Below, piece by piece: positions 19,386-62,991 of a DNA stretch of 64,000 nucleotides (position 1 is its first letter; every line of letters begins with the position of its first letter). A program made the position numbers and the translations under genes. The DNA is from Candidatus Eiseniibacteriota bacterium (GTDB taxonomy: Bacteria; Eisenbacteria; RBG-16-71-46): NCBI GenBank assembly GCA_036507005.1, contig DASXQT010000075.1, positions 37,178-101,177 of the forward strand, written 5' to 3'. A model generated the notes under the pieces. It made no database searches, had not been told where the DNA came from, and saw nothing but the letters and a program-made list of their open reading frames with translations.

Positions 19386-19725
19386 GCAACGCCGCACTCG
19401 TCCGCGCACATCGCAAGGTCCGCCGCGGGATTCGCGCGGTCGCGGGATTGCGGGATGCGATGCCCGTCGGATCGCGCGGAGCGCCCACCCGTCGCGAGGG
19501 GGTCCTGCGACCTCCGTTCCCGGAACGGCTTGGGTTTTTCGGCGCCCCGATCCTGCGTCCCGCACGATCCTCCGGCATGGGCGATGCTGCGTACCGCACC
19601 TCGGCGTTTCTACGCCACCAGTACGGGCCCACACTCGACGCGTTTGACGCCGATCCCTGGGCCCCCGGCACCGACTCAGGAGTGACCGGGAGCGCCCGTT
19701 CTGGAAAACGGACGGATCACGCGAG

Positions 19726-23519
<3,794 letters not shown>

Positions 23520-28193: not shown

Positions 28194-28499
28194 TCCCGCG
28201 CGCGGTTGCGGCTGGGACCTCACCGCCACGCGGGCAAGCGCGCTCGTCAGGCCGGGGAAGCCCGTGCTACCCTGCCCTGGCTTCCCGAAACAGGATGCGG
28301 TGCCCGTGCGCCTGCCGATACCCGCGGGGGGCGCTGCGGGCGGCGAACCCGGATTCGGCCGAGGAGCGGCCGGCGCTCCTCCCGCCTCGGACCTGCGGCT
28401 GCCATCGGCCGGGCGACCGCGGGCCTCCACGGCCACAGCGAGCGCTCCCTCGACGATGGATCGGAGGAATCCCCGGAGCCGGGGTATGGAACGACGGCG

Positions 28500-30794
28500 A
28501 TGCGAATGAGGGCGCAACTCCCAGGGCCGGGCCGGCGGGCGGGTACGCCCCGCCCTCCCGGCGCGCGCGCCTTCGCACTCCGGCTCGCCGCGCTGGCCGC
28601 GGCGCTGGCCGCGCTCTCCTCCTGCGCCTACTACAACACCTACTACCTGGCGCGGAAGTACTACTACCGCGGCACCAGCGGCGAGCCCTACTCGGTGGAA
28701 GGCCCGTCTCAGGCGAACGCCTCGCAGTTCAACAAGGCGATCGACTACTCCAAGAAGGTGCTGGCGCAGTATCCCAAGTCGAAGTGGGTGGACGACGCCT
28801 ACCTGATGTGGGCGCGCTCGCTGCTCGGCAGGGACGACCCGATCCAGACCGTGAACATGCTTCAGGACTTCACCACGCGCTTCCCCAAGAGTCCGCTGGG
28901 CTCGGAGGCGATGTTCTACCTGGGCGTGGCCAACCGCCAGGCGCGGCGCTATGCGGATGCGCTCACCGCGCTCGACGAGTTCCTGCGCCGCGCTCCGCGC
29001 CACGCGCTCGCGCCCCACGCGTACCTCGAGCGCGCGCGCACCTTGGTGGCGCTCGAGCGCCCGGCGGAGGCGGCGGAGGCCGCCACCCGGCTGCTCGAGC
29101 GCTATCCCAAGAGCCCGCTCGTGCCCCGGGCGCTCGCCCTGCGCGCGGAGGCGCGGCTCGCCAACGGCGACTACGAGCTGGCGCGCGCCGACTTCCACGC
29201 CCTGGGCACGCGGGCGCTGAGCGACGAGGAACGCCTCGGGTTCCTCCTGCGCGAGGCGGATTGCATCGAGGCCGCCCGCCAGTACGAGAAGGAGCTGGCC
29301 CTGCTGCGCGACGCGCTCTCGCACGAGCACGAGCCCGTGGCGCCCGACACCACCGGCGGGAAGCCCGCCGTCGGGCCCACCACGCCGGCCGCGCAGCACT
29401 GGGGGCGCCTCATGCTGCGCGTCGGCAGCGCCCAGCTCCTGGCGGGGCGCGTCCCCGATGCGCTCTCGGCCTACGAGCGCGTGGTCCACGCGTATCCCAA
29501 GACCGAGCTGGGCGCCGAGGCGCAGTACCGGCAGGGGTTCGCCTACGAAACCGCGGCCGAGGACTTCGACAAGGCGCGCGACCAGTACCGGAAGGTCCGG
29601 GACCATCTGGCCTCGGGGCCGTCCTTCAACCTCGCCTCCGAGCGGCTGGGCAATCTCGACCGGCTCGCCCAGTACCGCAAGGCGGGCGGCGACTCGCTGC
29701 AGAAGGGAGCCGAGGCGGATTTCCTCCTCGCCGAGCTGTACCTGTTCACGCACGACAAGCCCGAGCGCGCGCTCGAGGAGTACCGCCGCATCGCGAAGAC
29801 CTATCGAGGCACGCCGTACGCGGCCAAGGCGATGAATGCCGAGGCCTGGGTGCTGAGCCGGAAGCTGGACCGCAAGGCCGAGGCCGAGAGCCTGTTCTGG
29901 CGGGTGGTGCGCGAGTATCCCGCGACCGACGAGCAGCTCGCCGCGCGCGATTACCTGGAGATCGCCGGGCAGAAGGTGCCGGACAAGCTCATCAAGCGGC
30001 CGGCGCCCAAGCCGCCTCCGAAGCCCGCGCCGCGCGACACGCTGGGGCAGGCGCCCGCGCCACGCGACACGCTGCCGAAGGCGCCGGCGCCCCAGGCGCC
30101 GGCCGTCCTGGGTCCCGCGGTCCGCCCGCCGCTCGTCGCCGGTCCCGACTCGCTGCGGCTCGGGATCCGGCATCCGGGCGTGGGCCTGCAGGTGCCGGCC
30201 GGACCCGTGCCGTTCCCGGTCCCGCCGCCCACGCGGTCCGCAGGCGACAGCGGCGCGACTCGCGACACCGCCACCGCGCGCAGAGTCGCGCCGCCCGACA
30301 CGGCGGCCCGGCGCGCGCCGGTGCTTCCGGCGGCCCGGGACACGGCGCCTGCTCGCCCGCGATTCGGCCTGCCGCGGCCCACCCCGGCGCCGTGGACGGT
30401 CGCGCGCGACACGGCGCGTTCGATCGCGCGCGCGGACAGCGTGCGGCGTCCCGCGGCGCGCGACACGGGGCGCTCGGCGGCGCGGCCGGACACGGCGCGG
30501 CGGGCGATGGTGCGCGACACGGTGCGCTCGATCGCGCGCGCGGACAGCGTTCGGCGTCCCGCCATGCGCGACACGGCGCGGCGGGCGATGGTGCGCGACA
30601 CCTCGCGCTCGGCGGCGCGGCCGGACACGGCGCATCGCGTCGCGGCGAAGCGCGCGCCGCGCGACACGGCGCACGCCGCGCGGCCCGATACCACGCGGCG
30701 GCGCACCGGCAAGCCGGCGCGCCGAGACACCACGCATTCGGGCGCCCGGCCGGATACCGCGGCCCCGGCGCCCGCGCGCGACACGAGGGAGTGA
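28500..30794 (+). CDS. TPR-repeat lipoprotein with Arg/Asp/Thr-rich repetitive disordered C-terminal tail
   Basis: ATG 28500. Lipoprotein signal ...LAALAAALAALSSC|AYY. BamD/YfiO-like TPR repeats through about residue 500. Then a Pro-rich linker and a tail of ARDTARSIARADSVRRPAARDTGRSAARPDTARRAMVRDT... repeats. Confidence 0.7.
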   Translation: MRMRAQLPGPGRRAGTPRPPGARAFALRLAALAAALAALSSCAYYNTYYLARKYYYRGTSGEPYSVEGPSQANASQFNKAIDYSKKVLAQYPKSKWVDDAYLMWARSLLGRDDPIQTVNMLQDFTTRFPKSPLGSEAMFYLGVANRQARRYADALTALDEFLRRAPRHALAPHAYLERARTLVALERPAEAAEAATRLLERYPKSPLVPRALALRAEARLANGDYELARADFHALGTRALSDEERLGFLLREADCIEAARQYEKELALLRDALSHEHEPVAPDTTGGKPAVGPTTPAAQHWGRLMLRVGSAQLLAGRVPDALSAYERVVHAYPKTELGAEAQYRQGFAYETAAEDFDKARDQYRKVRDHLASGPSFNLASERLGNLDRLAQYRKAGGDSLQKGAEADFLLAELYLFTHDKPERALEEYRRIAKTYRGTPYAAKAMNAEAWVLSRKLDRKAEAESLFWRVVREYPATDEQLAARDYLEIAGQKVPDKLIKRPAPKPPPKPAPRDTLGQAPAPRDTLPKAPAPQAPAVLGPAVRPPLVAGPDSLRLGIRHPGVGLQVPAGPVPFPVPPPTRSAGDSGATRDTATARRVAPPDTAARRAPVLPAARDTAPARPRFGLPRPTPAPWTVARDTARSIARADSVRRPAARDTGRSAARPDTARRAMVRDTVRSIARADSVRRPAMRDTARRAMVRDTSRSAARPDTAHRVAAKRAPRDTAHAARPDTTRRRTGKPARRDTTHSGARPDTAAPAPARDTRE
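30405..30640. repeat. nested direct repeats (units of about 64, 29 and 22 bp, roughly 90% identical copies) encoding the RDT-repeat tail
   Basis: cgcgacacggcgcgttcgatcgcgcgcgcggacagcgtgcggcgtcccgc... recurs 115 bp later. gcgctcggcggcgcggccggacacggcgc and ggcgggcgatggtgcgcgacac are each duplicated. Confidence 0.6.
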
Positions 30795-38054: not shown

Positions 38055-39179
38055 ATGATCACGATCCTCCCGCTCCTGGTCCTGCTCGCCGCGTCGGGCG
38101 GCTCCGCGGAGACGCATCACTTCGAGCGCCTGTGCGCCCAGGTCGCGGCCGACTACGACAGCGCCCGCGGCGGCTTCGTCACCAAGGACGGCGCCCCGAT
38201 CGAGAGCGCGGTCGAGCTCGGCTTCGCCCTCGGCGGCGAGCGCGGCGACCCGCTGTGGCTCGCGCGCGCGCACCGCACCGCGGAGTGGATGCACGTGCTC
38301 TACGACTCGGCCGGCGGCGGCTTCTTCCTGCGGCTGCGGGATGCCGATCCGTCCTACGCCTCGTTCGAGAAGCCCACCCGGGCCAACGCCCGAAGGCTCG
38401 AGAACCTGATCGACGCCTGGCAGCACGGCGGCAGCGACGCCGACCGCCGCGCCGCCGCGCGCGTCGCCGACTACATGGACCGCGTGCTGCTCGACGCCCG
38501 CGGCGGGTTCGTGGCCGGGCAGGTCGGCGACCGGCAGCTCGTGCCCGAGGCCAACGGCTACGCGATCCGGGCCTGGCTGCGCTGGGCCGGGGCGAACGGC
38601 GACCCGCGCCTGCGCGAGTTCGCGTGGAAGAGCCTCGACCGCGTGTGGCAGGAATGCTGGGTCGAGGGCCTCGGGCTCATGCGCCTCGACATGTTCGGCC
38701 GGCGCGAGGGCTCGCCGCTGCTCGAGGACCAGTGCGAGATGGGGCGGGCGTTCATTCTGGCCGCCCACTTCGGCGGCCGCGAGGCCGACCTCGCGCGGGC
38801 GCGGGTTCTCGGCAACCTGGTGGTGGAGCGCTTCGAGGAGCCCGAGAAGGGCGGGTTCGCCCAGTACTCCCGGCCGCGCGGCGACGAGGGCAAGGCGAAG
38901 CGCGGCGGGCGCAAGTTCGACGAGAACGCGCGCGCCGTGCGCTTCCTGGCCGAGCTGGCCTCGGTCACCGGCAAGAACGAGTTCCGCGACGCCGCGCGCC
39001 GCGCCATACAGGTGTTCGAGCGCGACCTCGGCCGGGCGCGCGAGGACGCCGCCGACTGGGCGCTCGCGCTGCGCGCGCTCGAGGCGTCCGACCTGCCCTC
39101 GCGGCCGAAATGGAGCGAGCCTCCCAAGGCCGCGCCCGAATCGCCGCGCGTGTTCCGGATCCGGGGCCGGAGGCGGTAA
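38055..39179 (+). CDS. secreted hypothetical protein (DUF255/YyaL C-terminal six-hairpin glycosidase-like)
   Basis: RBS GGGGAG. Signal peptide MITILPLLVLLAASGGSA. 374 aa. Confidence 0.5.
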   Translation: MITILPLLVLLAASGGSAETHHFERLCAQVAADYDSARGGFVTKDGAPIESAVELGFALGGERGDPLWLARAHRTAEWMHVLYDSAGGGFFLRLRDADPSYASFEKPTRANARRLENLIDAWQHGGSDADRRAAARVADYMDRVLLDARGGFVAGQVGDRQLVPEANGYAIRAWLRWAGANGDPRLREFAWKSLDRVWQECWVEGLGLMRLDMFGRREGSPLLEDQCEMGRAFILAAHFGGREADLARARVLGNLVVERFEEPEKGGFAQYSRPRGDEGKAKRGGRKFDENARAVRFLAELASVTGKNEFRDAARRAIQVFERDLGRAREDAADWALALRALEASDLPSRPKWSEPPKAAPESPRVFRIRGRRR

Positions 39180-39244: not shown

Positions 39245-40684
39245 TCACCTCGGAACCCACCCGGCGAGCTTGAACAGTTCCCCGCCCCCGGGGGCGATCG
39301 TTCCGGTAGCGAACGAGCCCGAGTTCGATGCGACGGGGATCAGGCGGCCGTCGAGCTTGCCGACACGATGGACGGTGCGAGCGACCCCCCTGAGCGTGAC
39401 GCGGAACGACTGTGCGAGCAGCGTATCCTTGTTCGCGATCAGGACGTAGTCACCCTCCCCGTCACGCGCCTTGAAATAGCCAGCCAACCCCTCGCTGGAA
39501 GCGCCCTCGAGGTCCGACACCGGGGTGAGCGCGCTCCCCGGACGCGAGGGCGTGTCGTCGCCGCGAGGCACGACGAATCGATTGCCGGCGGCGTGGAAGA
39601 CCGCCACCGGATCGACCTGCATGAGAGTGGGGCCGAGCCCGCGAAGCTCGGCATTGAGCGCGGCCAGCGAATCGTGCAGGGCCCCGTTCTCGGACCCATC
39701 CCTGGTGAGGAACGAAGCGCCGTAGCCCGGCTCCGACGGGGGACCATCCCGGGGGCGGAGCGTCCAGTACAGGATCCCCTTGGCGCCGTACGCAATGGAG
39801 ACGTAAGCCTGCCAGCGAATCTGCTGGAAGGTCGGCGTCGGCCGATACGGGGAGCGCATGTCCTCCCGGCGCGGGGCCGCTTGGATCACCGACCAGAACG
39901 GGATCCGGTAGTTGGGCCGGCTGTGCTGGGCCGCTTTCTCCCTGACCAGCGCGAGCTGCACGAAGTACAGGCGGAAATCGGCGGAGGGTGTCTCGAAGGG
40001 GTACTTGTCGAACGAGACGACCGGCGCCGGGAAGGAGTCGGAGTCGAACGGCGACAGGTACTGGTCCAGGTAGCATCCGTACGCGGCCAGCGTGTCCCGG
40101 CTGCAGGGGGGCTGGAACCATTCGTACGCCTGGATGGGAAGCAGGTTGACCAGGGCGAGCTTGTCGTGCGTGCCAGCTCCGTTCGTGGAGTCGCGAAGCA
40201 TGAGCGTCATCTCGTGGATCGTCGTGAAGACCCGATCCGCGGCGAGCTTCCGATGCGGCGGATAATAAAGAGGCGGCTCGTCCCACAGAATCCAGCCCGC
40301 CACGGACGGGCTGTTGAGCCCGGCGGAAGGCATCAGCTCGCCCAGGAGGGCGGCGCGGTTCGCGGCCGGGTTCGGGTTCTTGAACAGGCTCCGCGGGTCG
40401 CCGGTCTCCAGATACGCGAACTCCTGCATCCGGAATCCCGGCCGAGTCGCGCGCAGCGAATCGAGGCGCGCTGCGATCCGGCGCGCGAGCGCCGGGGTGG
40501 GGTTGTCGAACGGCACCACGAACTCCAGGCCGGCGTCGTTCAGCCGGATCAGGCTCATGGGGTCGCCGCCCACGCCGAAGCCGCCGATCACGAAAGTCGT
40601 CTGTCTCCAAGCTGCGGGCGCGTCCCGCGTCTGGCTCCCGAGAACAAGCAGGGCAGGAAGCAAACGGCAGAACATCCTGCCCAT
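39245..40684 (-). CDS. secreted hypothetical protein (479 aa)
   Basis: RBS AGGAGG. Signal peptide MGRMFCRLLPALLVLGS. No motif recognised. Confidence 0.6.
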   Translation of the reverse strand: MGRMFCRLLPALLVLGSQTRDAPAAWRQTTFVIGGFGVGGDPMSLIRLNDAGLEFVVPFDNPTPALARRIAARLDSLRATRPGFRMQEFAYLETGDPRSLFKNPNPAANRAALLGELMPSAGLNSPSVAGWILWDEPPLYYPPHRKLAADRVFTTIHEMTLMLRDSTNGAGTHDKLALVNLLPIQAYEWFQPPCSRDTLAAYGCYLDQYLSPFDSDSFPAPVVSFDKYPFETPSADFRLYFVQLALVREKAAQHSRPNYRIPFWSVIQAAPRREDMRSPYRPTPTFQQIRWQAYVSIAYGAKGILYWTLRPRDGPPSEPGYGASFLTRDGSENGALHDSLAALNAELRGLGPTLMQVDPVAVFHAAGNRFVVPRGDDTPSRPGSALTPVSDLEGASSEGLAGYFKARDGEGDYVLIANKDTLLAQSFRVTLRGVARTVHRVGKLDGRLIPVASNSGSFATGTIAPGGGELFKLAGWVPR

Positions 40685-42121: not shown

Positions 42122-42281
42122 GGGCCGCGGGCCGCGACGCCCACCCTCTGCTTCACGCCCCGCGAGCGGCAATTATGCCGTTGCCGGAAAGGAATGTGCG
42201 AGAGAGAATGATTCAATGGGTCGCTGCCGGAGACGCCGGGGGACCAGCCGCCGCGAACGATCCCACGGGGAGGTTTCCAGC

Positions 42282-44762
42282 ATGCACCGACGCCCCTCGC
42301 CCGCGCTGTCTGCCGCCATCGTCTCTCTGCTCTTGATCGCTGCGCTTCCGCGCGTGACCCGCGCCGCGTGGCCTCACGATCCCTTCGCCAACATCCAGCT
42401 CGGCCCGTCCGCCGCCGACCAGCTCGTCGGCTCGGTGATCTCCGACGGGGCGGGCGGTGCCATCGTCGCCTGGGCGGATTCCCGCTCCGGAGGGCTCGAC
42501 ATCTACGCCCAACACATCACCGCCCAGGGCACCGTGGCCGCAGGCTGGCCGGGGAGCGGGCTCGCGGTATGCAAGGCCACCGGCGACCAGTCGGATCCGG
42601 TCATGATCTCCGATGGCGCCGGCGGAGCCATCATCGCGTGGGCCGACGGCAGAGTCGGTGCTGGAAATCGCGACATCTTCGTCGAGCGCGTGGACGGCTC
42701 GGGAGCCGTCCCCGCGGGCTGGCCGGAGAACGGCCGGCAGCTCTCGGCCGTGAACCTCACGAAGGACGAGCAGAATCCGGTCATCGTCAGCGATGGGGCA
42801 GGCGGCGCGATCGTCGTGTGGGAGCTGATCTTTGCCATCGGCACCGATATCGACATCTGCGGCGGCCGGGTCGACGGGAGCGGGAACGTTCTGTGGTCTG
42901 GCCCGGAGTACGAACCGGGATCGATTCAGGAAGCCCCTGCCGTGGTGCCGGACGGAGCAGCGGGAGCCATGGTGGCCTTCGAGGACAACCAGTCCGGCAA
43001 CTTCGACATCCGGGAGCTTCGCTTCGGCCCGAGTGGGTTCCATATCTGGGGCGCGAACATCGTGTGCAACGACCCGAACCCGCAGACCGCTCCTGTCGCC
43101 GCCGGTGACGGTGCCGGAGGAGCCATCATCGCATGGCAGGATCTCCGAAACGGGGACAACGACATCTTCGCATCGCGGATGACCTCGACCGGAGCCCGGT
43201 CGCCGGGCTGGACCAGCAACGGGAATCCCGTGGCCGTCTTCGCCTCCGGCCAGAGCGGTCCCCTCGCCATCTCCGACGGGAGCCAGGGCGCGTTCATCGC
43301 CTGGGCCGACTCCCGAACCGGGAACGCCAAGGTCTTCGCCCAGCACCTGCTGCCCAGCGGGGCGGCGGATTCGGTCTGGCCGGCCAACGGTCTCGGGCTG
43401 TGCAGCGCCGTGGGAAACGAGTTCTTGGGCGCGATCGCGCCGGACGGCTCCGGAGGCGCGATCGTGTGTTGGAGCGACGACAGGACCGGCCAGCTCGACG
43501 CCTACGCCACCCGCGTCACGGCCGGAGGCGTTCTCCCCACGCCCTGGCCGGCCGTGGGTGATCCGATCTCCCTGGCTCCCGGGAACGTGCAGCCTTCCCT
43601 TCTCGCCGCGGACGGGAACGGCGGCGCCGTGGTGGCCTGGTCGGATCTGCGCGACGGCTCCTTCCAGGCGGCCTTCGCCCAGAACGTGGATCATTTCGCC
43701 CAGCTCGGCGACGCCACGCCTTCGATCGCCAGCATCCGCGACGTCACCGGCGATCAGGGCGGCAGGGTGCGGATGGTGTGGAACGCCAGCTATCTCGACG
43801 TCGACCCTCAGTACGCCATCGGGGAATACTGGATCTGGCGCCAGTCGCCGGCCTCGCTGGCGGAGGCCGCCGTGAAGGGCGGCGCGCGCTGGCTCGATGC
43901 GGGCCTCGAGGCCGAGGCGCGCAGGATGAGCGCCGGCGAGTGGAACGCGCTCGCGCGTCGAGGGCTCTTCATGCGGGCGGATGTGTACGCTGCGAGCTAC
44001 GCCTGGGAGTTCGTAGCCTCTCAGCCTGCCAGCGGCTTCGGGCAGTACAGCTACGTCGCCGGGACGACGCGCGACTCGCTGGGATCGGGAAATCCACAGA
44101 CCGTCTTCATGGTGCAGGCGCGGTACACGTCGGGCGTCGCGTTCTGGAACTCGTCGCCCGACTCGGGCTACTCGGTCGACAATCTCGCACCCGTGTCGCC
44201 CTCGCCCTTCACCGCTCTCTACCAGGCGGGAGCCACCCGGCTCCACTGGGGCGCCAACGGCGAGGCGGATCTCGGCGGCTACCGGCTCTACCGCGGCAGC
44301 TCCGCCGGCTTCGTTCCCGGCCCGGACAATCTGGTGGTCGCTCAGCCCGATACCGGCTATGACGATGTCGGCCCCGCGGGCAGCTACTACAAGCTCTCGG
44401 CCGTGGACGTGCACGGCAACGAGAGCCTCTTCGCGCTGGTGACCCCGTCAGGCACCGTGGATGTGGGATTCGCTGCGCTTCCGCGCGAGCTCGCGCTCGG
44501 CTCCGCCGCGCCGAACCCGGCGCGCGTGGGGACCGCGCTGATGTACGCCCTTCCCGCCCGCGCACGGGTCTCGCTCACGGTCTGCGACGCGGCCGGCCGG
44601 CGGGTGCGGACGCTCGTGGACGCCGACCTCGAGGCCGGCGAGCGCGTCCAGCGCTGGGATGGAAGCGACGACGCCGGTCGCGCAATGCCGAACGGGCTCT
44701 ACTTCGTGCGCCTGAGCGCCCTGGGACGGACGCTGGTGCGGCGGGTCGTCATCGCGCGTTGA
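42282..44762 (+). CDS. secreted repeat protein (at least 9 tandem ~55-aa DGAGGAI-AW-D-R-G repeats, beta-propeller-like) with T9SS/FlgD-Ig-like C-terminal domain
   Basis: RBS GGGGAGG plus ATG 42282. Signal peptide. Repeats such as ISDGAGGAIVAWADSRSGGLDIYAQHI and ISDGAGGAIIAWADGRVGAGNRDIFVERV. C-terminus LALGSAAPNPARVGTALMYAL...VSLTVCDAAGRRVRTLV...GLYFVRL. Confidence 0.75.
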   Translation: MHRRPSPALSAAIVSLLLIAALPRVTRAAWPHDPFANIQLGPSAADQLVGSVISDGAGGAIVAWADSRSGGLDIYAQHITAQGTVAAGWPGSGLAVCKATGDQSDPVMISDGAGGAIIAWADGRVGAGNRDIFVERVDGSGAVPAGWPENGRQLSAVNLTKDEQNPVIVSDGAGGAIVVWELIFAIGTDIDICGGRVDGSGNVLWSGPEYEPGSIQEAPAVVPDGAAGAMVAFEDNQSGNFDIRELRFGPSGFHIWGANIVCNDPNPQTAPVAAGDGAGGAIIAWQDLRNGDNDIFASRMTSTGARSPGWTSNGNPVAVFASGQSGPLAISDGSQGAFIAWADSRTGNAKVFAQHLLPSGAADSVWPANGLGLCSAVGNEFLGAIAPDGSGGAIVCWSDDRTGQLDAYATRVTAGGVLPTPWPAVGDPISLAPGNVQPSLLAADGNGGAVVAWSDLRDGSFQAAFAQNVDHFAQLGDATPSIASIRDVTGDQGGRVRMVWNASYLDVDPQYAIGEYWIWRQSPASLAEAAVKGGARWLDAGLEAEARRMSAGEWNALARRGLFMRADVYAASYAWEFVASQPASGFGQYSYVAGTTRDSLGSGNPQTVFMVQARYTSGVAFWNSSPDSGYSVDNLAPVSPSPFTALYQAGATRLHWGANGEADLGGYRLYRGSSAGFVPGPDNLVVAQPDTGYDDVGPAGSYYKLSAVDVHGNESLFALVTPSGTVDVGFAALPRELALGSAAPNPARVGTALMYALPARARVSLTVCDAAGRRVRTLVDADLEAGERVQRWDGSDDAGRAMPNGLYFVRLSALGRTLVRRVVIAR

Positions 44763-44796: not shown

Positions 44797-47022
44797 CTAG
44801 CCGAGCACGACCAGCTTGCGCACGATGCTCTGGCCCGCCACGCGCAAGCGGTAGATATACAGTCCGCTGCGCCGCCCGACCGCCGACCACCTCACCGTGT
44901 GGCGGCCCGCCGCGCGCGTTTCGTCGACCAGGGTCGCGACCGTACGGCCGCCGACATCGAACACGTCCAGCTGCACGGGGCCTGCGCTCGGCAGTGTGAA
45001 CTCGATGGTGGTGCCCTCGTGCAGGGGATTGGGTCCTGCCTTCGCCGTCAGCAGCAGGCCTGGAGCTGGATCAACCCCCACGTTGCTGTCGATGTGTCCG
45101 TGCAGCACCACGCTCTGCGCCACCATCTCGGAGCTGCTCTGCTGCACCACGTACAGGCGCGAGTCCACCGCCCCTCCCTCCACCGGGCTGTAGGTCACCT
45201 GCACCAGCGTCGTCTCGTCCGGCGCCAGCGTCACCGGCAGCGGGCCGCTCACCAATGTCGCACTGAAGGTGCTGTCGGTGGTACGCAGGCAATCGATACT
45301 GATCGTCTGATTCCAGTGGTTCCACACCTTCAGCAACATGACACCGCTGCTGCCCACCGCGGGCGCACCGATGTCCATGCTCTGCCGGTCGGTCAGAATG
45401 CGGTTCGTGCGCCACGGGAAGCGGAACGCGCGGTAGTTCACCAGCCCGGACGGGAATTGCAACTCCGCCGCGATCGTGCCGTCGGCGAGAAGGTCGGTCA
45501 TCTGCGGATTGCTGAACGTGCCGCCCCAGCCGATCGTCACGCCGCCGTCGGGGTGCACCTGAACGTTCCCCATGAAGCCGCCGTACACATCGGGCACGTG
45601 CCGATACTCCCACACCTTGGTCGCCACGAAGTTCTGCTCGTCGACCACGAACTCCAAGGCACGGCTGTACCGGGGCGAGAGGTTGTTGCCGTTGTCGAAC
45701 AACGTCAGGTGACCGTTGGGCTGGACGCGCGCATCGTGCTGATGCGACCAGCCGCGCGTCTCGTTGGGAAACTTGAACATGTTGTTCAACGCGTTGAGCC
45801 CCATGCGCCACAGGACCGCGCCACTCTGCCGGTCGATCTTGGTGAGCTCGTTCAGGTGCCGGCTCGAGATGAGCAGATTGCCGTCCGGCATCATCTCCAC
45901 CGAGTTGCCGTGCACGTAGTCGATCCCGCTGGCCAGCAGGTTAATGTCCGGCGACGACCTGGCGTCGGTGATCTTGAAGTGGTCCCAGCTGCGCCACTGG
46001 AAGACCACGTCCTTGTTCTCGTCCAGCTCCTGCACGATCAGCCCGATCACGATGCAGTTGGGGTTGCCACCCGACACCACGGTGTCCATGCCCACGGGCT
46101 CAGGGTCGTACGACATGATGAGCGCGTGGCCGTTGGGCAAGATTTGGAGGTCGTGCAGGTCTGGCGAATAGCCGTTGCCGGTGGTGAAGCTGTCGACGCG
46201 GGCATACGCGCTATCCAGCACGAGGAACTTGAAGGCGCCGTTCATCCAGAACGAGAGCCGGCCGTCGGGCTGCACCTTGAAATCGAAAGGTATCGAATTG
46301 GCGTCGTAGCTCGCCTCATAGAGCGGTTGCCCGCGGTCATCCATGATCTCGAAATCCGCGCGATTCGAGGGTCCGAGCACCCACGGTGCGATGAAGAAGA
46401 CGCCGGGCTGGGAATTGCTGACGTTCACCAGATGGAGCGCCGGGAATCCCGGCAGGAGCGTGTCGCATGGCTCCCCGCTGTCCTGAATGGCGACCCCCGG
46501 CCGCAGCCACGACGGGTTGTCCGCGGGCGGGTCCGGCATCCGCTCGGACGCAGGCCGCGGCATGAGCCTGGGGTCGACGGTCGAGACCCGGAACTCGTAG
46601 GCGAGCTCCGGCAGCGTCGTGCCCGCAAGCGTGCGCGTTCCGGCGGCCAGGCGCACGCGCACCCTCTCACCCAGGGCGTAGGGCTGGTCGGGTGTGAACA
46701 GGATCGTCTGGCCGTCGCTCGCGAGCCTGAGCCGGCCGGCGTGCGGGCCGCTCTCGCCGCCCACGACCGACAGCCGGCGAGCGTCCAGGCTGGCGGGATC
46801 CAGGGCGCTGGCCTGCCTTATCACCAGATTGTTCCAGCGCGACACCTTGTCGGCGCCGGGAACGGGCGAGAGATACAGAAAAGCACGAGGCGCGGCCGCC
46901 GCGGGCGGCCCGAAGCTGGCGATGAGCGCGAGGATTGCGAAACTGATCGACGGAGGGCTGGAGCGCACGACGGCCCCCTTTCTCGGTCCGACGTCCTGCG
47001 GAGCCGTTCTCGTTGGGGACAT
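44797..47022 (-). CDS. arylsulfotransferase (ASST) family protein with T9SS C-terminal sorting domain
   Basis: Signal peptide after ATG 47022 (the ORF could extend to 47067). ASST-like beta-propeller region. C-terminus NPLHEGTTIEFTLPSAGPVQLDVFDVGGRTVATLV...GLYIYRL. Confidence 0.7.
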   Translation of the reverse strand: MSPTRTAPQDVGPRKGAVVRSSPPSISFAILALIASFGPPAAAAPRAFLYLSPVPGADKVSRWNNLVIRQASALDPASLDARRLSVVGGESGPHAGRLRLASDGQTILFTPDQPYALGERVRVRLAAGTRTLAGTTLPELAYEFRVSTVDPRLMPRPASERMPDPPADNPSWLRPGVAIQDSGEPCDTLLPGFPALHLVNVSNSQPGVFFIAPWVLGPSNRADFEIMDDRGQPLYEASYDANSIPFDFKVQPDGRLSFWMNGAFKFLVLDSAYARVDSFTTGNGYSPDLHDLQILPNGHALIMSYDPEPVGMDTVVSGGNPNCIVIGLIVQELDENKDVVFQWRSWDHFKITDARSSPDINLLASGIDYVHGNSVEMMPDGNLLISSRHLNELTKIDRQSGAVLWRMGLNALNNMFKFPNETRGWSHQHDARVQPNGHLTLFDNGNNLSPRYSRALEFVVDEQNFVATKVWEYRHVPDVYGGFMGNVQVHPDGGVTIGWGGTFSNPQMTDLLADGTIAAELQFPSGLVNYRAFRFPWRTNRILTDRQSMDIGAPAVGSSGVMLLKVWNHWNQTISIDCLRTTDSTFSATLVSGPLPVTLAPDETTLVQVTYSPVEGGAVDSRLYVVQQSSSEMVAQSVVLHGHIDSNVGVDPAPGLLLTAKAGPNPLHEGTTIEFTLPSAGPVQLDVFDVGGRTVATLVDETRAAGRHTVRWSAVGRRSGLYIYRLRVAGQSIVRKLVVLG

Positions 47023-47161
47023 GGCGATCTCCGGACACCGGCATCCGTACCGGGCCGTGTATCCCATTAATAGAGTATATCGGCGCGAACGGGAACCGTC
47101 GAGATGCGTTTATTAGGGCTGTCCGCCCTCGGGTTGCATTTTCCGCGGCGCGATTCGGAGT

Positions 47162-53933: not shown

Positions 53934-55570
53934 GGTGGCTCCGCGTGGCCGCTTGCGCCGTTCTGTCGCTCGTGCTGGCGACGTCGTCGCGGGCCCAGCA
54001 GACCTTCGCGCCCCAAGCGGAGGGCCAGCCCCAGGTGCAGATCGACACGGGCGATCAAAACGGCGCCTCGAGCGAGAGGACCGCCGCTGCGGGCACAGAG
54101 GAGACGTCGGGGCTCGCGTCGCTGGCTAGGAACCTCCTCCAGCTCCCGGGGGCAGTGGATCCCGACATCTACCGCCTGGGTCCAGGCGATCTGCTGCTCC
54201 TCCAGCTCTGGGGTCGCGTGTCGCGCAGCCTGCCGCTGGAGATCGGCCCGGAAGGTATGGTGCTGGTTCCGGGGGCGGGGCCGGTGCGGGTCGACGGTCT
54301 CACCCTGAGCCGCGCGCGCCAGATGCTTCTGGACCGGATGGCGACCCAGTTCAAGGGAGTCCACATGGATCTGCGCCTGGCGCGACCCAGGACGTTCATC
54401 GTCTACATGACCGGCCAGGTGCGCGCGCCCGGGCCCGTCGCCGCCACCGGCACGAGCCGCGTCGCGGACGTCCTCCGGCCCGACGTCCTGCTCGAGGACG
54501 CTTCCCGGCGCGCCATCGAGGTGCTCCACCGCGACGGCAGTCGGGAGCTCGCGGACCTGGACCTCTTTCATCGCATCGGGGACGCATCCGGCAACCTGTG
54601 GCTGCGCGACGGGGACGTGCTCAACGTGCCGGTGGCCACCGAGTTCGTGTTCGCCGAGGGCGCCGTGGCCCGGCCCGAGCGCATCGAGCTCGGCGCGCGG
54701 GACAGCCTCCTCAACCTGCTCCGCTTGGCGGGCGACCCGATCCCCGCGGCGGACGCGGCGCGGGTCCTGCTTGTGCATTTCCGGATGCCGTTCCAGCCCG
54801 AGTCCCTGTGGCTGACCCTCGACGACATCTACTCCCGGCGCAACAACCCGCGGCTCCACGACGGCGACCGGCTATACGTCTATTTCGTTCCGCAGTACCA
54901 TCTGCAGCACGAGGCGACCCTCCTCGGCGAGGTCGGCCGTCCCGGGGTCTACCCCATCGCGGAGGGCATGACGCGGCTCTCCCACTTGGTGCAGGCGGCG
55001 GGCGGGTTCCTGAACTCGGCGGACCTGTCGGCCATACGGGTTCACCGGCGGAACGTGGGGACGGGCGAGAAGGATCCGGAGCTGGACCGGCTGCTGAGGC
55101 TGTCGCGGAACGACCTGACCGCCACGGAGTACGTGGTGTTGCGCACCAGGCTCGCGGGCCTTCGCGAAGACTACCGGGTGGACTGGAGGCGGCTCACGGC
55201 CGGCAACGAGCTGGATCTCCTGATGCGGAACGGCGACCTGGTGCAGGTCGACCGGTTGGTTTCCTCGATCCGCGTCGACGGGGAAGTGAAGCGTCCGGGG
55301 GTTCTGAACTACATCAAGGGACAGCGCATCGACGACTACGTAAAGCAGGTGGGCGGGTACACCGGCCGCGCCTGGCGCGGGAAGGTGCGCGTGACGCGGG
55401 CGGTGACGGGCCAGACCATCCTCGCTCGCAACGTCCAGACCCTCAACCCCGGCGATTTCGTGTGGGTTCCCGAGAAGCCCGACGTCACGATCTGGCAGCA
55501 GACCCGGGACGTGCTGACCGGGCTCGCGGAGGTCGCCACCATCATCATCGCGATCCGGAGCGTGCGGTGA
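53930..55570 (+). CDS. wza: polysaccharide export protein (Wza-like, Poly_export plus SLBB domains)
   Basis: ATGA overlap with the rfbB stop. Signal peptide. YRLGPGDLLLLQLWGR (Poly_export) and repeated SLBB-like segments. Confidence 0.8.
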   Translation: MRWLRVAACAVLSLVLATSSRAQQTFAPQAEGQPQVQIDTGDQNGASSERTAAAGTEETSGLASLARNLLQLPGAVDPDIYRLGPGDLLLLQLWGRVSRSLPLEIGPEGMVLVPGAGPVRVDGLTLSRARQMLLDRMATQFKGVHMDLRLARPRTFIVYMTGQVRAPGPVAATGTSRVADVLRPDVLLEDASRRAIEVLHRDGSRELADLDLFHRIGDASGNLWLRDGDVLNVPVATEFVFAEGAVARPERIELGARDSLLNLLRLAGDPIPAADAARVLLVHFRMPFQPESLWLTLDDIYSRRNNPRLHDGDRLYVYFVPQYHLQHEATLLGEVGRPGVYPIAEGMTRLSHLVQAAGGFLNSADLSAIRVHRRNVGTGEKDPELDRLLRLSRNDLTATEYVVLRTRLAGLREDYRVDWRRLTAGNELDLLMRNGDLVQVDRLVSSIRVDGEVKRPGVLNYIKGQRIDDYVKQVGGYTGRAWRGKVRVTRAVTGQTILARNVQTLNPGDFVWVPEKPDVTIWQQTRDVLTGLAEVATIIIAIRSVR

Positions 55571-59463: not shown

Positions 59464-60623
59464 CCCCGCCGCCCGCGTCCTCCGCCGGGCCCGGGCTGCT
59501 TCTGGACGTCTTCCCCGGCCTCTTCCCGGGCGGCGGAATCGGTCGCTATGTGCGGGACCTCGCTGACCTGCTGCTCACGCGGGCGGACGCGCCCCCGGCG
59601 CGCTTCGTCTATCCCCGCTTCGTCGATGGGATCCAGGTGCCCTACCCGGCGGAGCGCTTGAGGCCGCTTCCGCTCGGGTGGCGTCGCATGCGCGTGCTTC
59701 TGGTGGCGAGCGCGCTCTGTGGCCTGCGGCCCGATCGCCTCTACGGGTGCCCGGCCCTGGTGCACTCGCCCATGGGATATGGCCCCTTGTTCTCGAAGGC
59801 CAAGCTCCTGATCACCATTCACGACCTCAACGCGATCCACCACCCCGAATGGCATCCGCTCCGCACCCGGTTCCTCGTGCAGGCGACGATGCCCTCCGCG
59901 GCGCGGCACGCCGACCTCGTCGTGTGCGACTCCGAGTTCGTGCGCGGCCAGGTGATGGAGGCCTTCGGCGTGGACCCGGCACGCATCACCACGGTCCCGC
60001 TCGCCGTCGGGCCAGCGTTCCGGCGACTGCCCCCGGGGGCGGCGCGGGACCACATGGCGCGGCGCTTCGGCATCGAAGGCGAGTTCTTCCTCCACGTGGG
60101 CACGCTCGAGCCCCGCAAGAATCACGTTGGTCTCGTTGCCGCATTCGAGCGCGTGCGGCGGGCCGGGTTCCCCGGGCCGCTGGTGCTGGTCGGCCACGAC
60201 GGGTGGCTCATGAACCCGATCGCGGCGCGGATCGAGTCCTCACCGGACTCCGGCGCGATCGTTCGGATCCGCGACGCCGACGAGGATGATCTGGTCGCCC
60301 TCTACTCCGCCTGCACCGCGTTCGCGTTCCCTTCGCTCGATGAGGGCTTCGGCCTCCCGCCGCTCGAGGCGATGGCGTGCGGCGCCCCCTGCATCTCGAG
60401 CAACCGTTCCTCCCTTCCGGAGGTGGTGGGGGATGCGGCCGTGTCCCTCGATCCCGGCGACGTGGAGGCGTGGGCCGAGACCCTGCGCGGGCTGTGGCGG
60501 GACGCCGATCGCCGCGCCACCATGGCCGCCGCGTCGGTCGCGCGCGCCCAACGATTCACGCGCGACCGCTGGATCGCACGGATGCTCGAGATCTACCGGG
60601 TGCTGCTCGCCGGGGCGTCCTGA
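59460..60623 (+). CDS. GT4 family glycosyltransferase (tandem paralogue)
   Basis: ATGA overlap. FLHVGTLEPRKNHVGLVAAFERV ... AFPSLDEGFGLPPLEAMACGAPCI. Confidence 0.8.
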   Translation: MTPPPASSAGPGLLLDVFPGLFPGGGIGRYVRDLADLLLTRADAPPARFVYPRFVDGIQVPYPAERLRPLPLGWRRMRVLLVASALCGLRPDRLYGCPALVHSPMGYGPLFSKAKLLITIHDLNAIHHPEWHPLRTRFLVQATMPSAARHADLVVCDSEFVRGQVMEAFGVDPARITTVPLAVGPAFRRLPPGAARDHMARRFGIEGEFFLHVGTLEPRKNHVGLVAAFERVRRAGFPGPLVLVGHDGWLMNPIAARIESSPDSGAIVRIRDADEDDLVALYSACTAFAFPSLDEGFGLPPLEAMACGAPCISSNRSSLPEVVGDAAVSLDPGDVEAWAETLRGLWRDADRRATMAAASVARAQRFTRDRWIARMLEIYRVLLAGAS

Positions 60624-61981
60624 GCCGGAGCCCGGGACCGCGCGCCTCGGGACATCGAGTAGTAGCCGAGGTATCCGCCCATGATCCAGAAGAACACGAA
60701 CTGGTACTGCTCACCCTGGAAGGTTGGCTCGACCAGGGTGTGCAGTTGACCGAGACAGAAGCTCACCATCAGGGCCCGTCCAACGCCCTGCCAATCCGGG
60801 TCGGACGCCAGCGCTGAGAGCCGGCGCCAGAGAAGGACGAGCACGCTGAGCCAGCCCGCCACCCCGAGCAGGCCGAGCTCGGAGGAAAGGGCGAGCCAGT
60901 AGTTGTGCGGATCCCGGTCGAAGAGGCGGTCCGGATACGTCCAGCCCTGATTCAGGCCCATTCCCCAGGGAAAGTGATCGACGGTGCGCTGCCATGCCAC
61001 CCGGAAGTACCAGATCCTCACTGCGATGCTGGCCAGCTCACGGGAACTGGTGAAGCGCGACAGGAAGCTCTGACCCAGGGGGCTGATCACGAATCCGAAC
61101 AGCGCGGCCGTGATCAGGAGCGCCCCGATCAGCTTGCGCGAGCGGTTGGCGAACGCCTGCACCGCGGTTCCGAAAACAAAGAGGAGAGCCGCGGCGCGTG
61201 AAGCGATGAGTCCCTGCATGAGCGCGATGAGCACGAGCGCGAGCCACGACGGCAGCCGCAGCCAACGCTGGCGCGAGTGCATCGCGGCTTCGAGCAGCAG
61301 GGGAGAAAGCAGCAGCAGCAGAGTGGCGATGTAGTTGGCCGTGCCCCAACCGAGATCCGTTGCAGCGGCCCGGTGAAAGGCGGTCTGCTCCACGTTCCAG
61401 CCGGTCGACAGCCACTTGCCGAGGGCCGCCAGCGACAAGGCCAGGGCCCCGAGGAGCAGGCCCACCTCGAACGTCGATCTCGGAACCACGCGCGCCAGGC
61501 GGTTCGCGACCCAGAAGGCGGCGAAGCCCTCCAGCAGCCGGCGGACTCCATGCACGTACCACGCGAAGTCGAAGCACCAGAACCCGGTGAACACCGCCCA
61601 GGCGATGAACCCCAGGTTGGCCGCCTCGATCCACTCCAGGCGGACCATCCACGCTGCACGCCGACGGATTCCCTGAAGACCGAGGATCAGCGCGAGCGCC
61701 GCGAAGGAGAACTCGAAGGGGAAGAAGATCGAGACCACCGTCCCGAGCGGGAGCAGGGCCGGGGTCACGACCACCAACACCTCCGGCGCGGCGTACAGCA
61801 GGGCAGCCAGCACCGCGGTCGCGAGCACGGCGCTGATCGCCAGGCCCGGGATCGAGAGGACCCCGACGCCGAAGATGGCGTAGACCAGCGAGACCACGGC
61901 GATCACGACCGCCGCGTCGGGCACATGGCGCTCGAGGACCGCGGGGACGCGCGCTAGCGCGATGGGCGCCCGGCTGCTCAC
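60593..61981 (-). CDS. O-antigen ligase/polymerase-like membrane protein (Wzy/WaaL family)
   Basis: 462 aa, minus strand, about 11 TM helices with a large periplasmic loop. The only antisense gene in the cluster; its 3' end overlaps the GT4 stop by about 30 nt. Confidence 0.7.
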   Translation of the reverse strand: MSSRAPIALARVPAVLERHVPDAAVVIAVVSLVYAIFGVGVLSIPGLAISAVLATAVLAALLYAAPEVLVVVTPALLPLGTVVSIFFPFEFSFAALALILGLQGIRRRAAWMVRLEWIEAANLGFIAWAVFTGFWCFDFAWYVHGVRRLLEGFAAFWVANRLARVVPRSTFEVGLLLGALALSLAALGKWLSTGWNVEQTAFHRAAATDLGWGTANYIATLLLLLSPLLLEAAMHSRQRWLRLPSWLALVLIALMQGLIASRAAALLFVFGTAVQAFANRSRKLIGALLITAALFGFVISPLGQSFLSRFTSSRELASIAVRIWYFRVAWQRTVDHFPWGMGLNQGWTYPDRLFDRDPHNYWLALSSELGLLGVAGWLSVLVLLWRRLSALASDPDWQGVGRALMVSFCLGQLHTLVEPTFQGEQYQFVFFWIMGGYLGYYSMSRGARSRAPAQDAPASSTR

Positions 61982-62067
61982 TGCGTGGGCCGGGAGACGG
62001 GCAGCGGGAGGCGAATCACGCGGAAAGGTTAGCGCGCGTTCCCCGGGCTCGCAATCCCACCGGGCGC

Positions 62068-62991
62068 TTGGTGCGTTTGGACAGCCGTCCTCCCGGTGCC
62101 TATCATGCCCGCACGCATGTCGCTGCCTCGTGTCACCGCCTGCGAGAGGCCCTCAACCCCGATTTCGGAGGAAAATTGAAGCCTCAGACCGTCTCCGAGG
62201 CGCAGGAGCGGGAGCGTCAATTCTGGCGAACGACGCGGGACGAGGGGCCCCAGTCCAACACGGTCGACCTCCTGGCCCACAAGCTGAGCGAAGCACGCTC
62301 ATTCCTCGAATGCATGAGGCTGTTTCGCGACGTCTTCGAGCGCGCCCGGGACATCCTGGAGCTCGGCGGCGGGGAGGGCTGGGCCGCGTGCATCCTCAAG
62401 CGCGAGCTCCCAGGGTCTCGCAGGATCGTCAGCTCCGACATCAGCGCTGAGGCGGTCGCGGCACTGCCCCGATGGGAGCGAATCTTCGAGGTGTCTCTCG
62501 ACCGGGCCTTCCCATGCCTGAGTTACGAGATCCCCCTCGACAACGAGACCCTGGATCTTGTCTTCACCTTTCAGGCGGCGCACCACTTTCTGGCACACCG
62601 CAGGACCTTCGCCGAGATCTGGAGAGTGCTCCGCCCCGGGGGCACGTGCCTCTATCTCCACGAGCCCACGTGCCGCGCATTCTTCTATCCCCTCTACCGC
62701 GCCCGTGCGACCCGGGTCCGCGACTCGGCCCCCGAGGACGTCCTGGACTTCCCCAAGCTCATCCGCGTCGCCCGCCGACAGGGCTTCGAGGCCACCTATC
62801 GCTTCGACCTTTCCCTCACGAATCGCTCCCCGGTAGCGACTCTCTACTACATGGCTCAGCGAGCCGTGCCTTTGATCCGCCACGTCCTGCCTGGCACGAA
62901 GCACCTGCTCTTCCGGAAGCACGCGTCGGATCGCTCGGCGACGGTCGCGAAGCGGTGGTTCCCCGCCGCCGGAGGCGGCCCTCCGGCGTGA
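62068..62991 (+). CDS. class I SAM-dependent methyltransferase
   Basis: ILELGGGEGWAACIL (motif I) and LRPGGTCLY (post-I). TTG/GTG start at 62068/62071. Confidence 0.7.
   Translation: MVRLDSRPPGAYHARTHVAASCHRLREALNPDFGGKLKPQTVSEAQERERQFWRTTRDEGPQSNTVDLLAHKLSEARSFLECMRLFRDVFERARDILELGGGEGWAACILKRELPGSRRIVSSDISAEAVAALPRWERIFEVSLDRAFPCLSYEIPLDNETLDLVFTFQAAHHFLAHRRTFAEIWRVLRPGGTCLYLHEPTCRAFFYPLYRARATRVRDSAPEDVLDFPKLIRVARRQGFEATYRFDLSLTNRSPVATLYYMAQRAVPLIRHVLPGTKHLLFRKHASDRSATVAKRWFPAAGGGPPA

What the first reader, a model, noticed from the sequence alone, without database searches (positions are those of the whole stretch)
42282..44762. Secreted protein made of at least 9 tandem ~55-aa repeats centred on DGAGGAI(V/I)AW-D-R-G--DI(Y/F)AQ, ending in a T9SS sorting domain
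The periodicity and the Trp/Asp/Gly pattern suggest a beta-propeller built from a repeat I cannot assign to WD40, YVTN, Kelch or PQQ by eye. The protein is followed convergently by an arylsulfotransferase that also carries a T9SS C-terminal domain. Together with the 1002-aa protein this makes three T9SS-type cargo genes in the window.
Basis: partly seen in the sequence, partly recalled or inferred. Interest (0 to 1): 0.5.

Follow-up and report, generated by a model that had tools for sequence, protein, structure and literature searches.

The report
Eight-bladed propeller protein with secretion tail
The gene encodes a secreted protein whose head is an eight-bladed beta-propeller built from an unnamed 56-residue repeat and whose tail is a type IX secretion signal; the family is very large in little-known soil and sediment bacteria, but it is an ordinary kind of protein with no known function.

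Summary
The gene (42282-44762, +, 826 aa) is real and identical to GenBank HEY2956108.1 from a Candidatus Eisenbacteria MAG. It has 8 repeats, not "at least 9". A blade HMM built from homologs, query excluded, finds exactly 8 (i-E 3e-11 to 4e-24).

No Pfam propeller family matches. The only repeat hit is NCBIfam TIGR04275 at 44 bits, below its cutoff of 85. No solved structure shares the repeat.

After the propeller come a beta-sandwich with a helical insert, an FN3 domain and an Ig-like C-terminal domain. That last domain scores as FlgD_ig and marginally as the T9SS type A sorting domain, and it resembles solved T9SS C-terminal domains.

The repeat occurs in about 26,000 protein clusters, in modules of 8, 16 or 24 blades. 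Members come from Eisenbacteria, Krumholzibacteriota, Latescibacterota, Ignavibacteriota, Bacteroidota and others, often in tandem paralog arrays. Gene neighbourhood is not conserved.

Most likely it is a non-catalytic, T9SS-exported binding protein whose specificity lies in hypervariable loops on one face. T9SS machinery could not be checked. Interest is modest.

The parts
42267..42273 (+). Shine-Dalgarno-like GGGGAGG, 8 nt before the ATG
   Evidence: Read directly.
42282..42365 (+). Sec signal peptide, aa 1-28. Basic n-region MHRR, hydrophobic core, TRA|AW cleavage site, no lipobox Cys.
   Evidence: Sequence. The family consensus keeps about 25 residues followed by PAxAAWPH. The cleavage site is inferred.
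42369..42542 (+). Propeller blade 1 (aa 30-87)
   Evidence: Blade HMM i-E 9.9e-21. Strands in the AF2 model.
42546..42716 (+). Propeller blade 2 (aa 89-145)
   Evidence: Blade HMM i-E 4.3e-24.
42720..42890 (+). Propeller blade 3 (aa 147-203)
   Evidence: Blade HMM i-E 1.2e-17.
42894..43037 (+). Propeller blade 4 (aa 205-252). This is the most divergent blade, with a shortened first strand region.
   Evidence: Blade HMM i-E 3e-11 over aa 215-252. W205 is conserved in 98% of the family.
43047..43205 (+). Propeller blade 5 (aa 256-308)
   Evidence: Blade HMM i-E 1.1e-20. The best TIGR04275 stretch, aa 261-296, lies here.
43209..43373 (+). Propeller blade 6 (aa 310-364)
   Evidence: Blade HMM i-E 4.8e-20.
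43377..43535 (+). Propeller blade 7 (aa 366-418)
   Evidence: Blade HMM i-E 5.4e-23.
43545..43712 (+). Propeller blade 8 (aa 422-477). It ends in the family-specific (R/H)FGxLG linker.
   Evidence: Blade HMM i-E 1.2e-15. Blade-8-specific consensus.
43722..44177 (+). Middle beta-sandwich domain with a helical insertion (aa about 481-632). It starts with the conserved D(V)xxDQGGxV...W motif.
   Evidence: AF2 model of aa 468-826, pLDDT 92.9. Invariant D487, D491, G493, G494. The domain also occurs without a propeller in about 300-aa proteins that carry a Por_Secre_tail. No family name was found.
44208..44441 (+). Fibronectin type III-like domain (aa about 643-720)
44508..44753 (+). C-terminal Ig-like sorting domain (aa 743-824). 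It scores as FlgD_ig and as a T9SS type A C-terminal domain.
44797..47067 (-). Convergent neighbour: an ASST-like protein with a T9SS type A C-terminal domain. It is context only and is not part of the propeller protein. JGI calls a 723-aa product starting at 46968.
   Evidence: PF05935 82.1 bits, PF14269 75.2 bits, TIGR04183 37 bits. Its last roughly 150 aa are 33.5% identical to aa 674-824 of the target.

Best explanation
The gene encodes a modular, non-catalytic extracellular or cell-surface binding protein.

Export route (inferred). A Sec signal peptide takes it to the periplasm. The C-terminal Ig-like domain is a type A T9SS sorting signal. By analogy with Bacteroidota cargo, it would be recognised at the outer-membrane translocon. 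It would then be removed by the PorU sortase, leaving the protein released or attached to a surface glycolipid.

Architecture (predicted). The middle beta-sandwich and FN3 domains act as a stalk. The N-terminal head is a closed 8-bladed beta-propeller built from a 56-57-aa, four-strand repeat: W-P-x-x-G ... C ... Q-x-x-P ... S-D-G-A-G-G-A-I-V-x-W-x-D-x-R ... D-I-Y-A-Q ... G.

Binding (inferred). The conserved residues are the same in all eight blades and most likely hold the fold together. The hypervariable positions sit in the A-B and C-D loops, which by blade topology lie on one face of the disc, and that face is proposed as the ligand-binding, specificity-determining surface. The family has diversified by paralog expansion, often in tandem, and by module duplication to 16 or 24 blades. 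The ligand is unknown; a polysaccharide or another surface polymer is the most plausible guess.

Shown here: the ORF, eight repeats, the propeller fold, the FN3 and C-terminal-domain folds, the size and spread of the family, and the lack of conserved context. Inferred: Sec cleavage, T9SS export and processing, and the binding function and its face.
For: Fold.
- AF2 pLDDT 95.5, pTM 0.93.
- Exactly 8 blades by an independent HMM.

No sign of a unique active site.
- Every invariant or nearly invariant propeller column in 50-101 homologs is a repeat-consensus position shared by all blades: W1, G5, Q15, D23, G24, G26, G27, W32, D34, R36, D42, Y44, A45, G52.
- No blade-specific invariant residue was found.

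Variability clusters in two loops.
- Majority-residue frequency is 0.17-0.45 at blade positions 12-14, 16-17 and 19 (A-B loop).
- It is also 0.17-0.45 at positions 33, 35, 37 and 39-41 (strand C outward positions and C-D loop).
- The B-C turn scores 0.93-1.0 at four of its five positions, D23-G24-x-G26-G27 (position 25 is 0.68).

Fusion partners in other architectures.
- Partners are Ig-like or lectin-like surface modules: Big_12 x7, TIG, BACON_2, Laminin_G_3, HYR, LTD and DUF7619.
- No enzyme domain was seen in the 13 long proteins scanned; one carried a TIR_2 domain.

Family size and modularity.
- 25,976 clusters at E<=1e-3 and 7,991 at E<=1e-30.
- Repeat counts are quantised at 8, 16 and 24.
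- 16 of 81 genomic loci carry 2-3 tandem copies.

C-terminal domain.
- HMM hits.
- 48 of 50 family members hit TIGR04183.
- Fold match to the PorU and mirolase C-terminal domains.
- NCBI names close homologs 'T9SS type A sorting domain-containing protein'.
[quoted passage not shown] Another places T9SS in the FCB superphylum (PMC11205867).
- Family members come from Eisenbacteria, Krumholzibacteriota, Latescibacterota, Ignavibacteriota, Bacteroidota, Fibrobacteraceae and Gemmatimonadota.
Against: - No ligand, and no direct evidence of binding.
- Model coordinates could not be inspected, so exposure of the conserved Asp, Arg, Trp, Gln and Tyr residues is unknown. They could form eight equivalent functional sites rather than a purely structural network.
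- The TIGR04183 score is only 0.5 bit above its cutoff, and PF18962 does not hit this protein.
- No T9SS machinery gene is in the 64-kb window. The only TPR candidate is YbgF/BamD-like, with PorW/SprE at 42 bits against a cutoff of 250.
- One review describes T9SS as restricted to Bacteroidota.
- NCBI taxonomy does not place Eiseniibacteriota in the FCB group.
- Foldseek ranks some carbohydrate-active propeller enzymes among its top hits.
Confidence: 0.55

Rival explanations
1. The propeller is an enzyme, for example a polysaccharide lyase or glycoside hydrolase of the propeller type. It would act on an extracellular glycan, perhaps the product of the adjacent polysaccharide gene cluster.
For: Foldseek top hits include PL42 L-Rha-alpha-1,4-GlcA lyase (7esn/7esl, E 7e-9 to 3e-8), GH145 (5mvh, 5mul), PL24/PL25 ulvan lyases and the alkylating enzyme CylK (E 4e-10, TMq 0.61). 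The gene sits at the edge of a surface-polysaccharide cluster, next to an ASST-like gene.
Confidence: 0.15
2. The protein is a structural coat or matrix component. Many paralogs would be exported and attached to the outer surface as an S-layer-like or capsule-associated protein shell, with the propeller mediating self-association or binding to the cell's own surface polysaccharide.
For: The family has very high copy number with tandem arrays. The same residues are strongly conserved on the B-C/D-A face in all blades and all paralogs, which could be a common docking surface. This copy sits in a surface-polysaccharide cluster. From my own knowledge, not tested here, the T9SS component PorZ combines propeller domains with a type A C-terminal domain and binds anionic LPS.
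Confidence: 0.15
3. The C-terminal domain is only a FlgD-type Ig fold and not a secretion signal. The protein would stay in the periplasm or on the inner face of the outer membrane, like the propeller proteins TolB or BamB.
For: FlgD_ig is the stronger HMM hit, at 38.5 bits against 23.5 for TIGR04183. BamB and TolB appear among the fold matches. No T9SS genes are in the window.
Against: There is no FlgD N-terminal domain and no flagellar context. The domain is at the extreme C-terminus and shows PNP, GLYFVRL and basic C-terminal motifs, judged by eye against the type A motif pattern I recall. The ASST-like neighbour shares them and scores 37 bits on TIGR04183. 48 of 50 relatives hit TIGR04183, and some longer relatives carry an unambiguous Por_Secre_tail, for example P0234 at 36.7 bits. 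The fold matches solved T9SS C-terminal domains.
Confidence: 0.1

Closest known systems
NCBIfam TIGR04275 'beta_prop_Msarc' beta-propeller repeat
   Same: It is the only curated repeat model that recognises the blades. The query scores 44.1 bits (E 1.2e-11), with the best stretch at aa 261-296 against model positions 4-34 of 40. 48 of 50 family members hit it, best E 1.3e-22.
   Different: The score is far below the curated cutoff of 85 bits. The model is 40 positions long against a 56-57-aa period here, so it covers only the core of the blade. NCBI does not name these proteins from it. The relationship to Pfam SBBP and delta-60 type repeats is my recollection and was not tested; TIGR02608 delta_60_rpt was hit by only 5 of 50 members.
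Eight-bladed WD40 and BamB-type propellers (Rsa4 4wjv, Cdc4 1nex, Sif2 1r5m, BamB 4pk1; designed Ika8 6g6o)
   Different: Identity is 8-12%. No WD40 or PQQ Pfam model is hit. The repeat is longer (56 aa against about 40-44). The protein is extracellular, bacterial and attached to a T9SS C-terminal domain.
T9SS type A cargo proteins of Bacteroidota (e.g. RgpB, mirolase, PorU, PorZ)
   Different: The host is a Candidatus Eisenbacteria MAG, not Bacteroidota. The HMM score is marginal and FlgD_ig scores higher. The machinery, cleavage and anchoring are untested. The head domain is not a known enzyme or adhesin family.
Propeller lectins with one site per blade (PLL 5c9o, CV39L 6gxs, BP39L 6gxr)
   Different: To my knowledge (not checked here) they are seven-bladed. 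Identity is 10-12%, and no shared motif was seen. Sugar binding was not tested for this family.

Membership tests
Beta-propeller fold (8-bladed) | Closed ring of four-stranded antiparallel blades, one per sequence repeat | tested here: met
WD40 / Kelch / PQQ / YVTN / other Pfam propeller repeat families | Pfam HMM match at or above the gathering score | tested here: not met
   The query has no Pfam hit other than FlgD_ig at E<=1. Among 50 relatives at E<=0.1, only stray hits appear: Beta-prop_WDR35 in 3 and ANAPC4_WD40 in 1.
NCBIfam TIGR04275 beta_prop_Msarc repeat protein | Whole-protein score at or above the curated cutoff of 85 bits | tested here: not met
   44.1 bits for the query. The best family member reaches E 1.3e-22, and the family is not named from this model by NCBI.
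T9SS type A cargo | C-terminal domain matching TIGR04183 / PF18962 at the extreme C-terminus | tested here: inconclusive
   TIGR04183 23.5 bits against a cutoff of 23, aa 743-824 of 826. PF18962 is not hit by the query. 48 of 50 relatives hit TIGR04183 at E<=0.01 and 28 of 50 hit PF18962 at E<=0.1.
T9SS type A cargo | C-terminal domain folds as a compact Ig-like seven-strand sandwich like solved T9SS C-terminal domains | tested here: met
T9SS type A cargo | N-terminal Sec signal peptide | tested here: met
   The n-h-c organisation and TRA|AW site were read from the sequence and are conserved in the family. No dedicated signal-peptide predictor was available.
T9SS type A cargo | Genome encodes the T9SS core (SprA/Sov, PorV, PorU, PorK/L/M/N) | not testable with these tools
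   None was found among the window genes scanned. The rest of the 195-kb contig and of the MAG could not be searched.
T9SS type A cargo | T9SS-dependent export and removal of the C-terminal domain | not testable with these tools
   This needs an experiment.
FlgD flagellar hook-capping protein | FlgD N-terminal domain plus the Ig-like domain, in a flagellar gene context | tested here: not met
   Only the Ig-like part matches: PF13860 at aa 753-813, and the NCBIfam FlgD equivalogs score 20-34 bits against cutoffs of 230-383. The neighbours are polysaccharide-synthesis genes. The database name 'FlgD immunoglobulin-like domain containing protein' describes only the tail.
Arylsulfotransferase (ASST) family, for the neighbouring gene | Pfam PF05935 / PF14269 at or above the gathering score | tested here: met
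   82.1 and 75.2 bits against cutoffs of 24.2 and 27. Catalytic residues and activity were not examined.

The most novel reading that the evidence does not exclude
The residues conserved identically in all eight blades may not be merely structural. These are the ring of Asp-Gly-x-Gly-Gly turns, the W-x-D-x-R and D-I-Y-A-Q strands, and a Cys on the innermost strand of most blades in most family members. They could form eight equivalent ligand sites or a metal- or cofactor-binding central channel. In that case this family of about 26,000 clusters would be a new class of multivalent extracellular lectin or metalloprotein, specific to T9SS-bearing candidate phyla.
Probability: 0.12. Interest if true: 0.55.

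Novelty: new variant of a known kind. Interest (0 to 1): 0.3.

Why it matters
The repeat has no Pfam model and no solved structure, and the databases name it only after its tail ('FlgD Ig-like domain containing protein').

It is nonetheless present in about 26,000 clusters at 50% identity. It is one of the most expanded predicted secreted protein families in Eisenbacteria and also occurs in Krumholzibacteriota, Latescibacterota and Ignavibacteriota, and these are phyla with few or no cultured members.

Defining it as an 8-blade module would improve annotation of thousands of 'hypothetical' surface proteins. It would also give a handle on how these soil and sediment bacteria interact with their surroundings.

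It is not a surprise in kind. Propeller heads on T9SS tails are expected, and nothing here points to a new mechanism.

Tried and rejected
- Ninth repeat. The extra regular-expression match at aa 122 is inside blade 2, and the HMM finds 8 repeats only.
- Recent DNA amplification. TRF finds nothing.
- Additional copies in the window. tblastn finds only the gene itself, plus the shared C-terminal region of the ASST-like neighbour.
- Sequence link to a solved structure. The whole-family profile hits only FlgD and PorU Ig domains and an FN3 domain. The single-blade profile hits nothing.
- AlphaFold-database fold search. The library was not available.
- Operon or neighbourhood inference. It was rejected because seven related loci examined have unrelated neighbours.
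- PorW/SprE candidate in the window (866-aa TPR protein). Rejected: 42 bits against a cutoff of 250; it is YbgF/BamD-like.
- Walking along the contig beyond the window. This failed because the look-up needs an exact gene product.
- Search with the middle domain alone. It returned only 8 hits because of the word index. It still showed that the domain exists without the propeller.
- Literature searches for Eisenbacteria plus T9SS, FlgD Ig-like plus T9SS, and PF13860. They found nothing specific.
- Disulfide-pairing idea for the conserved inner-strand Cys. It is not supported: counts per protein run from 1 to 7, odd as often as even.
- Precomputed Pfam labels on relatives (Mtf2_C, Lipoprotein_15, DUF1491, BiPBP_C, SH3_19 and others). 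They are cumulative repeat artefacts with 0 significant stretches.
Full report
**Observation**

The ORF at 42282-44762 (+) encodes 826 aa. The ATG is preceded at 8 nt by GGGGAGG. The product is 100% identical, over its full length, to a protein called independently in NCBI (HEY2956108.1, 'FlgD immunoglobulin-like domain containing protein', Candidatus Eisenbacteria MAG), JGI and Logan assemblies. The window has about 72% G+C, and the frame shows the expected GC3 bias.

The N-terminus, MHRRPSPALSAAIVSLLLIAALPRVTRA|AW, has the layout of a Sec signal peptide. The family consensus keeps this layout immediately before the first blade.

**Repeat count**

The core DGxxG motif begins at aa 55, 111, 171, 224, 276, 332, 388 and 444. 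One further pattern match at aa 122 lies inside repeat 2.

I built a 57-position blade HMM from the blades of 49 homologs, leaving the query out. It finds exactly eight units in the query, with i-E from 3e-11 to 4e-24, and nothing downstream of aa 477. The query's own blades are on average 33% identical. There is no repeat at the DNA level, so the repeats are ancient.

**Fold of the head**

AlphaFold2 on aa 28-486, with a 101-sequence alignment, gives pLDDT 95.5 and pTM 0.93. The model is all-beta with four strands per repeat.

**Sequence family of the repeat**

In Pfam the query hits nothing except FlgD_ig at E<=1. Fifty relatives hit no propeller family consistently. Profiles of the whole family and of the single blade find no propeller in PDB sequences.

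The only curated model that sees the blades is NCBIfam TIGR04275 (beta_prop_Msarc). The query scores 44.1 bits, and 48 of 50 relatives hit it with best E 1.3e-22. All of this is under the model's cutoff of 85 bits. The repeat is thus an unnamed sequence family with a sub-threshold similarity to one curated propeller-repeat model.

**The rest of the protein**

AlphaFold2 on aa 468-826 gives pLDDT 92.9. The model shows three parts:
- A beta-sandwich with a helical insertion, about aa 481-632. It starts with the invariant D..DQGG motif. The domain also occurs on its own with a Por_Secre_tail in about 300-aa proteins.
- A terminal Ig-like domain, aa 743-824.

The protein is not FlgD. There is no FlgD N-terminal domain, and the FlgD equivalog scores are tenfold below their cutoffs.

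**Family and distribution**

The word-indexed search returned more than 6,200 relatives. Most are 800-830 aa and 40-58% identical over the full length, and almost all are annotated only for the tail.

The exhaustive blade-profile search of 1.84 billion representatives finds 25,976 clusters at E<=1e-3 and 7,991 at E<=1e-30. Repeat numbers are quantised at 8, 16 and 24, in proteins of 491 to more than 5,000 aa (motif counts).

A scan of one genome per species found at least 568 loci. They come from Eisenbacteria, Krumholzibacteriota, Latescibacterota, Ignavibacteriota, Bacteroidota, Fibrobacteraceae and Gemmatimonadota MAGs. A few records labelled Saccharimonadia or Udaeobacter are probably mis-binned, which is my judgement. 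Sixteen of 81 loci hold two or three tandem copies.

**Context**

Positions 40.9-64 kb of the window form a surface-polysaccharide cluster. It contains:
- four GT4 glycosyltransferases;
- NDP-sugar epimerases/dehydratases and a UDP-glucose dehydrogenase;
- two flippases;
- a Wza-like exporter and a Wzy-like protein.

The propeller gene and the convergent ASST-like gene sit between the first GT4 and the first epimerase. This placement is not conserved. The closest homologs (53-58% identity) and more distant paralogs lie next to unrelated genes. I therefore give the neighbourhood no functional weight.

No T9SS machinery gene was found among the window genes scanned. The 866-aa TPR protein is YbgF/BamD-like, not PorW.

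**Mechanism**

All invariant and nearly invariant propeller columns are repeat-consensus positions, and they recur in every blade: W1, G5, Q15, D23, G24, G26, G27, W32, D34, R36, D42, Y44, A45 and G52. No blade carries a residue of its own that is conserved across the family. This argues against a single active site.

The least conserved positions have a majority frequency of 0.17-0.45. They are blade positions 12-14, 16-17 and 19 in the A-B loop, and 33, 35, 37 and 39-41 around the C-D loop. In a four-strand meander these two loops lie on the same face. The opposite face carries the DGxGG turn, invariant or nearly so at four of its five positions, and the G...WPxxG blade connector.

In longer architectures the module is joined to Big_12, TIG, BACON, Laminin_G, HYR, LTD and DUF7619 domains. 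None of the 13 long proteins scanned carried an enzyme domain; one carried a TIR_2 domain.

Together with the paralog arrays, this fits a diversifying, non-catalytic binding head on an FN3/Ig stalk. The head would be exported by Sec and then by T9SS, and released or anchored after removal of the C-terminal domain. The export steps are inferred from what is established for Bacteroidota type A cargo (PMC10202324; PMC11285876) and from the statement that T9SS occurs in the FCB superphylum (PMC11205867). The binding function is inferred and the ligand is unknown. I put this explanation at about 0.55.

**Rivals**

- An enzymatic propeller, 0.15. It rests on generic Foldseek hits and a non-conserved neighbourhood.
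- A structural coat or self-polysaccharide-binding protein, 0.15.
- A periplasmic propeller whose tail is not a secretion signal, 0.10. This is weakened by the structural and family-wide T9SS C-terminal-domain evidence.

**Comparison with the known, and novelty**

In fold the head is like 8-bladed WD40 and BamB propellers. In architecture the protein is like T9SS type A cargo. It fails the membership test for every named repeat family that I could test. It passes the C-terminal-domain tests only marginally by HMM, but clearly by fold. It is best described as an undescribed sequence family (a variant) of a known kind.

A specialist would not be surprised by a propeller on a T9SS tail. The main value is for annotation: a very large family with no Pfam model and no structure.

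**Unexplained**

A Cys on the inner strand of most blades is conserved in 66-92% of family members. The count per protein is odd as often as even, so the Cys residues are not obligate disulfide pairs, and the query keeps only three.

Noticed in passing
window 40958-64000: A large surface-polysaccharide (EPS or O-antigen type) gene cluster. It holds four GT4 glycosyltransferases, three to four NDP-sugar epimerases/dehydratases, a UDP-glucose dehydrogenase, a dTDP-sugar isomerase, two Wzx-like flippases, a Wza-like exporter (53945-55567) and a Wzy-like protein (60596-62152, minus strand).
   Followed up: partly
window 6077-6808 (-): A small secreted 'choice-of-anchor P' protein (NF040603, 93.6 bits) that ends in ...ATWGMLKALYR. 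The C-terminal motif and its sorting route were not examined.
   Followed up: no
window 19648-22734 (+): A roughly 1000-aa protein with a Big_1-like Ig domain and a FlgD_ig-type C-terminal domain (37.7 bits). That domain aligns with those of the propeller protein and the ASST-like protein. Its large N-terminal part has no family hit.
   Followed up: partly
window 42282-43712; family alignments A1 and A3: A Cys on the innermost strand (blade position 9) is conserved in 66-92% of family members for blades 1-7. The number per protein ranges from 1 to 7, odd and even alike, so these are not obligate disulfide pairs. The query retains only three. Its role is unknown; a lining of the central channel is possible.
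   Followed up: partly
window 43722-44177 (aa 481-632): The conserved middle domain, which starts D(V)xxDQGGxV..W and has a helical insertion, has no Pfam or NCBIfam model. It also occurs alone with a Por_Secre_tail in about 300-aa proteins (P0125, P0126).
   Followed up: partly
window 38055-39176 (+) and 39245-40684 (-): Two genes just upstream, of 374 aa and 479 aa, have no Pfam or NCBIfam match. Both are called as genes in the JGI record.
   Followed up: no
window 28194-30791 (+): An 866-aa TPR protein of the YbgF/BamD type (TIGR02795, 109 bits). It resembles T9SS PorW/SprE only through generic TPR similarity (42 bits against a cutoff of 250).
   Followed up: yes
P0129, P0130, P0143, P0181 (representative library): Giant proteins of 4,286-5,506 aa carry 24-35 copies of the same blade. 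A separate 1,977-aa protein with 16 blades carries a TIR_2 domain.
   Followed up: no
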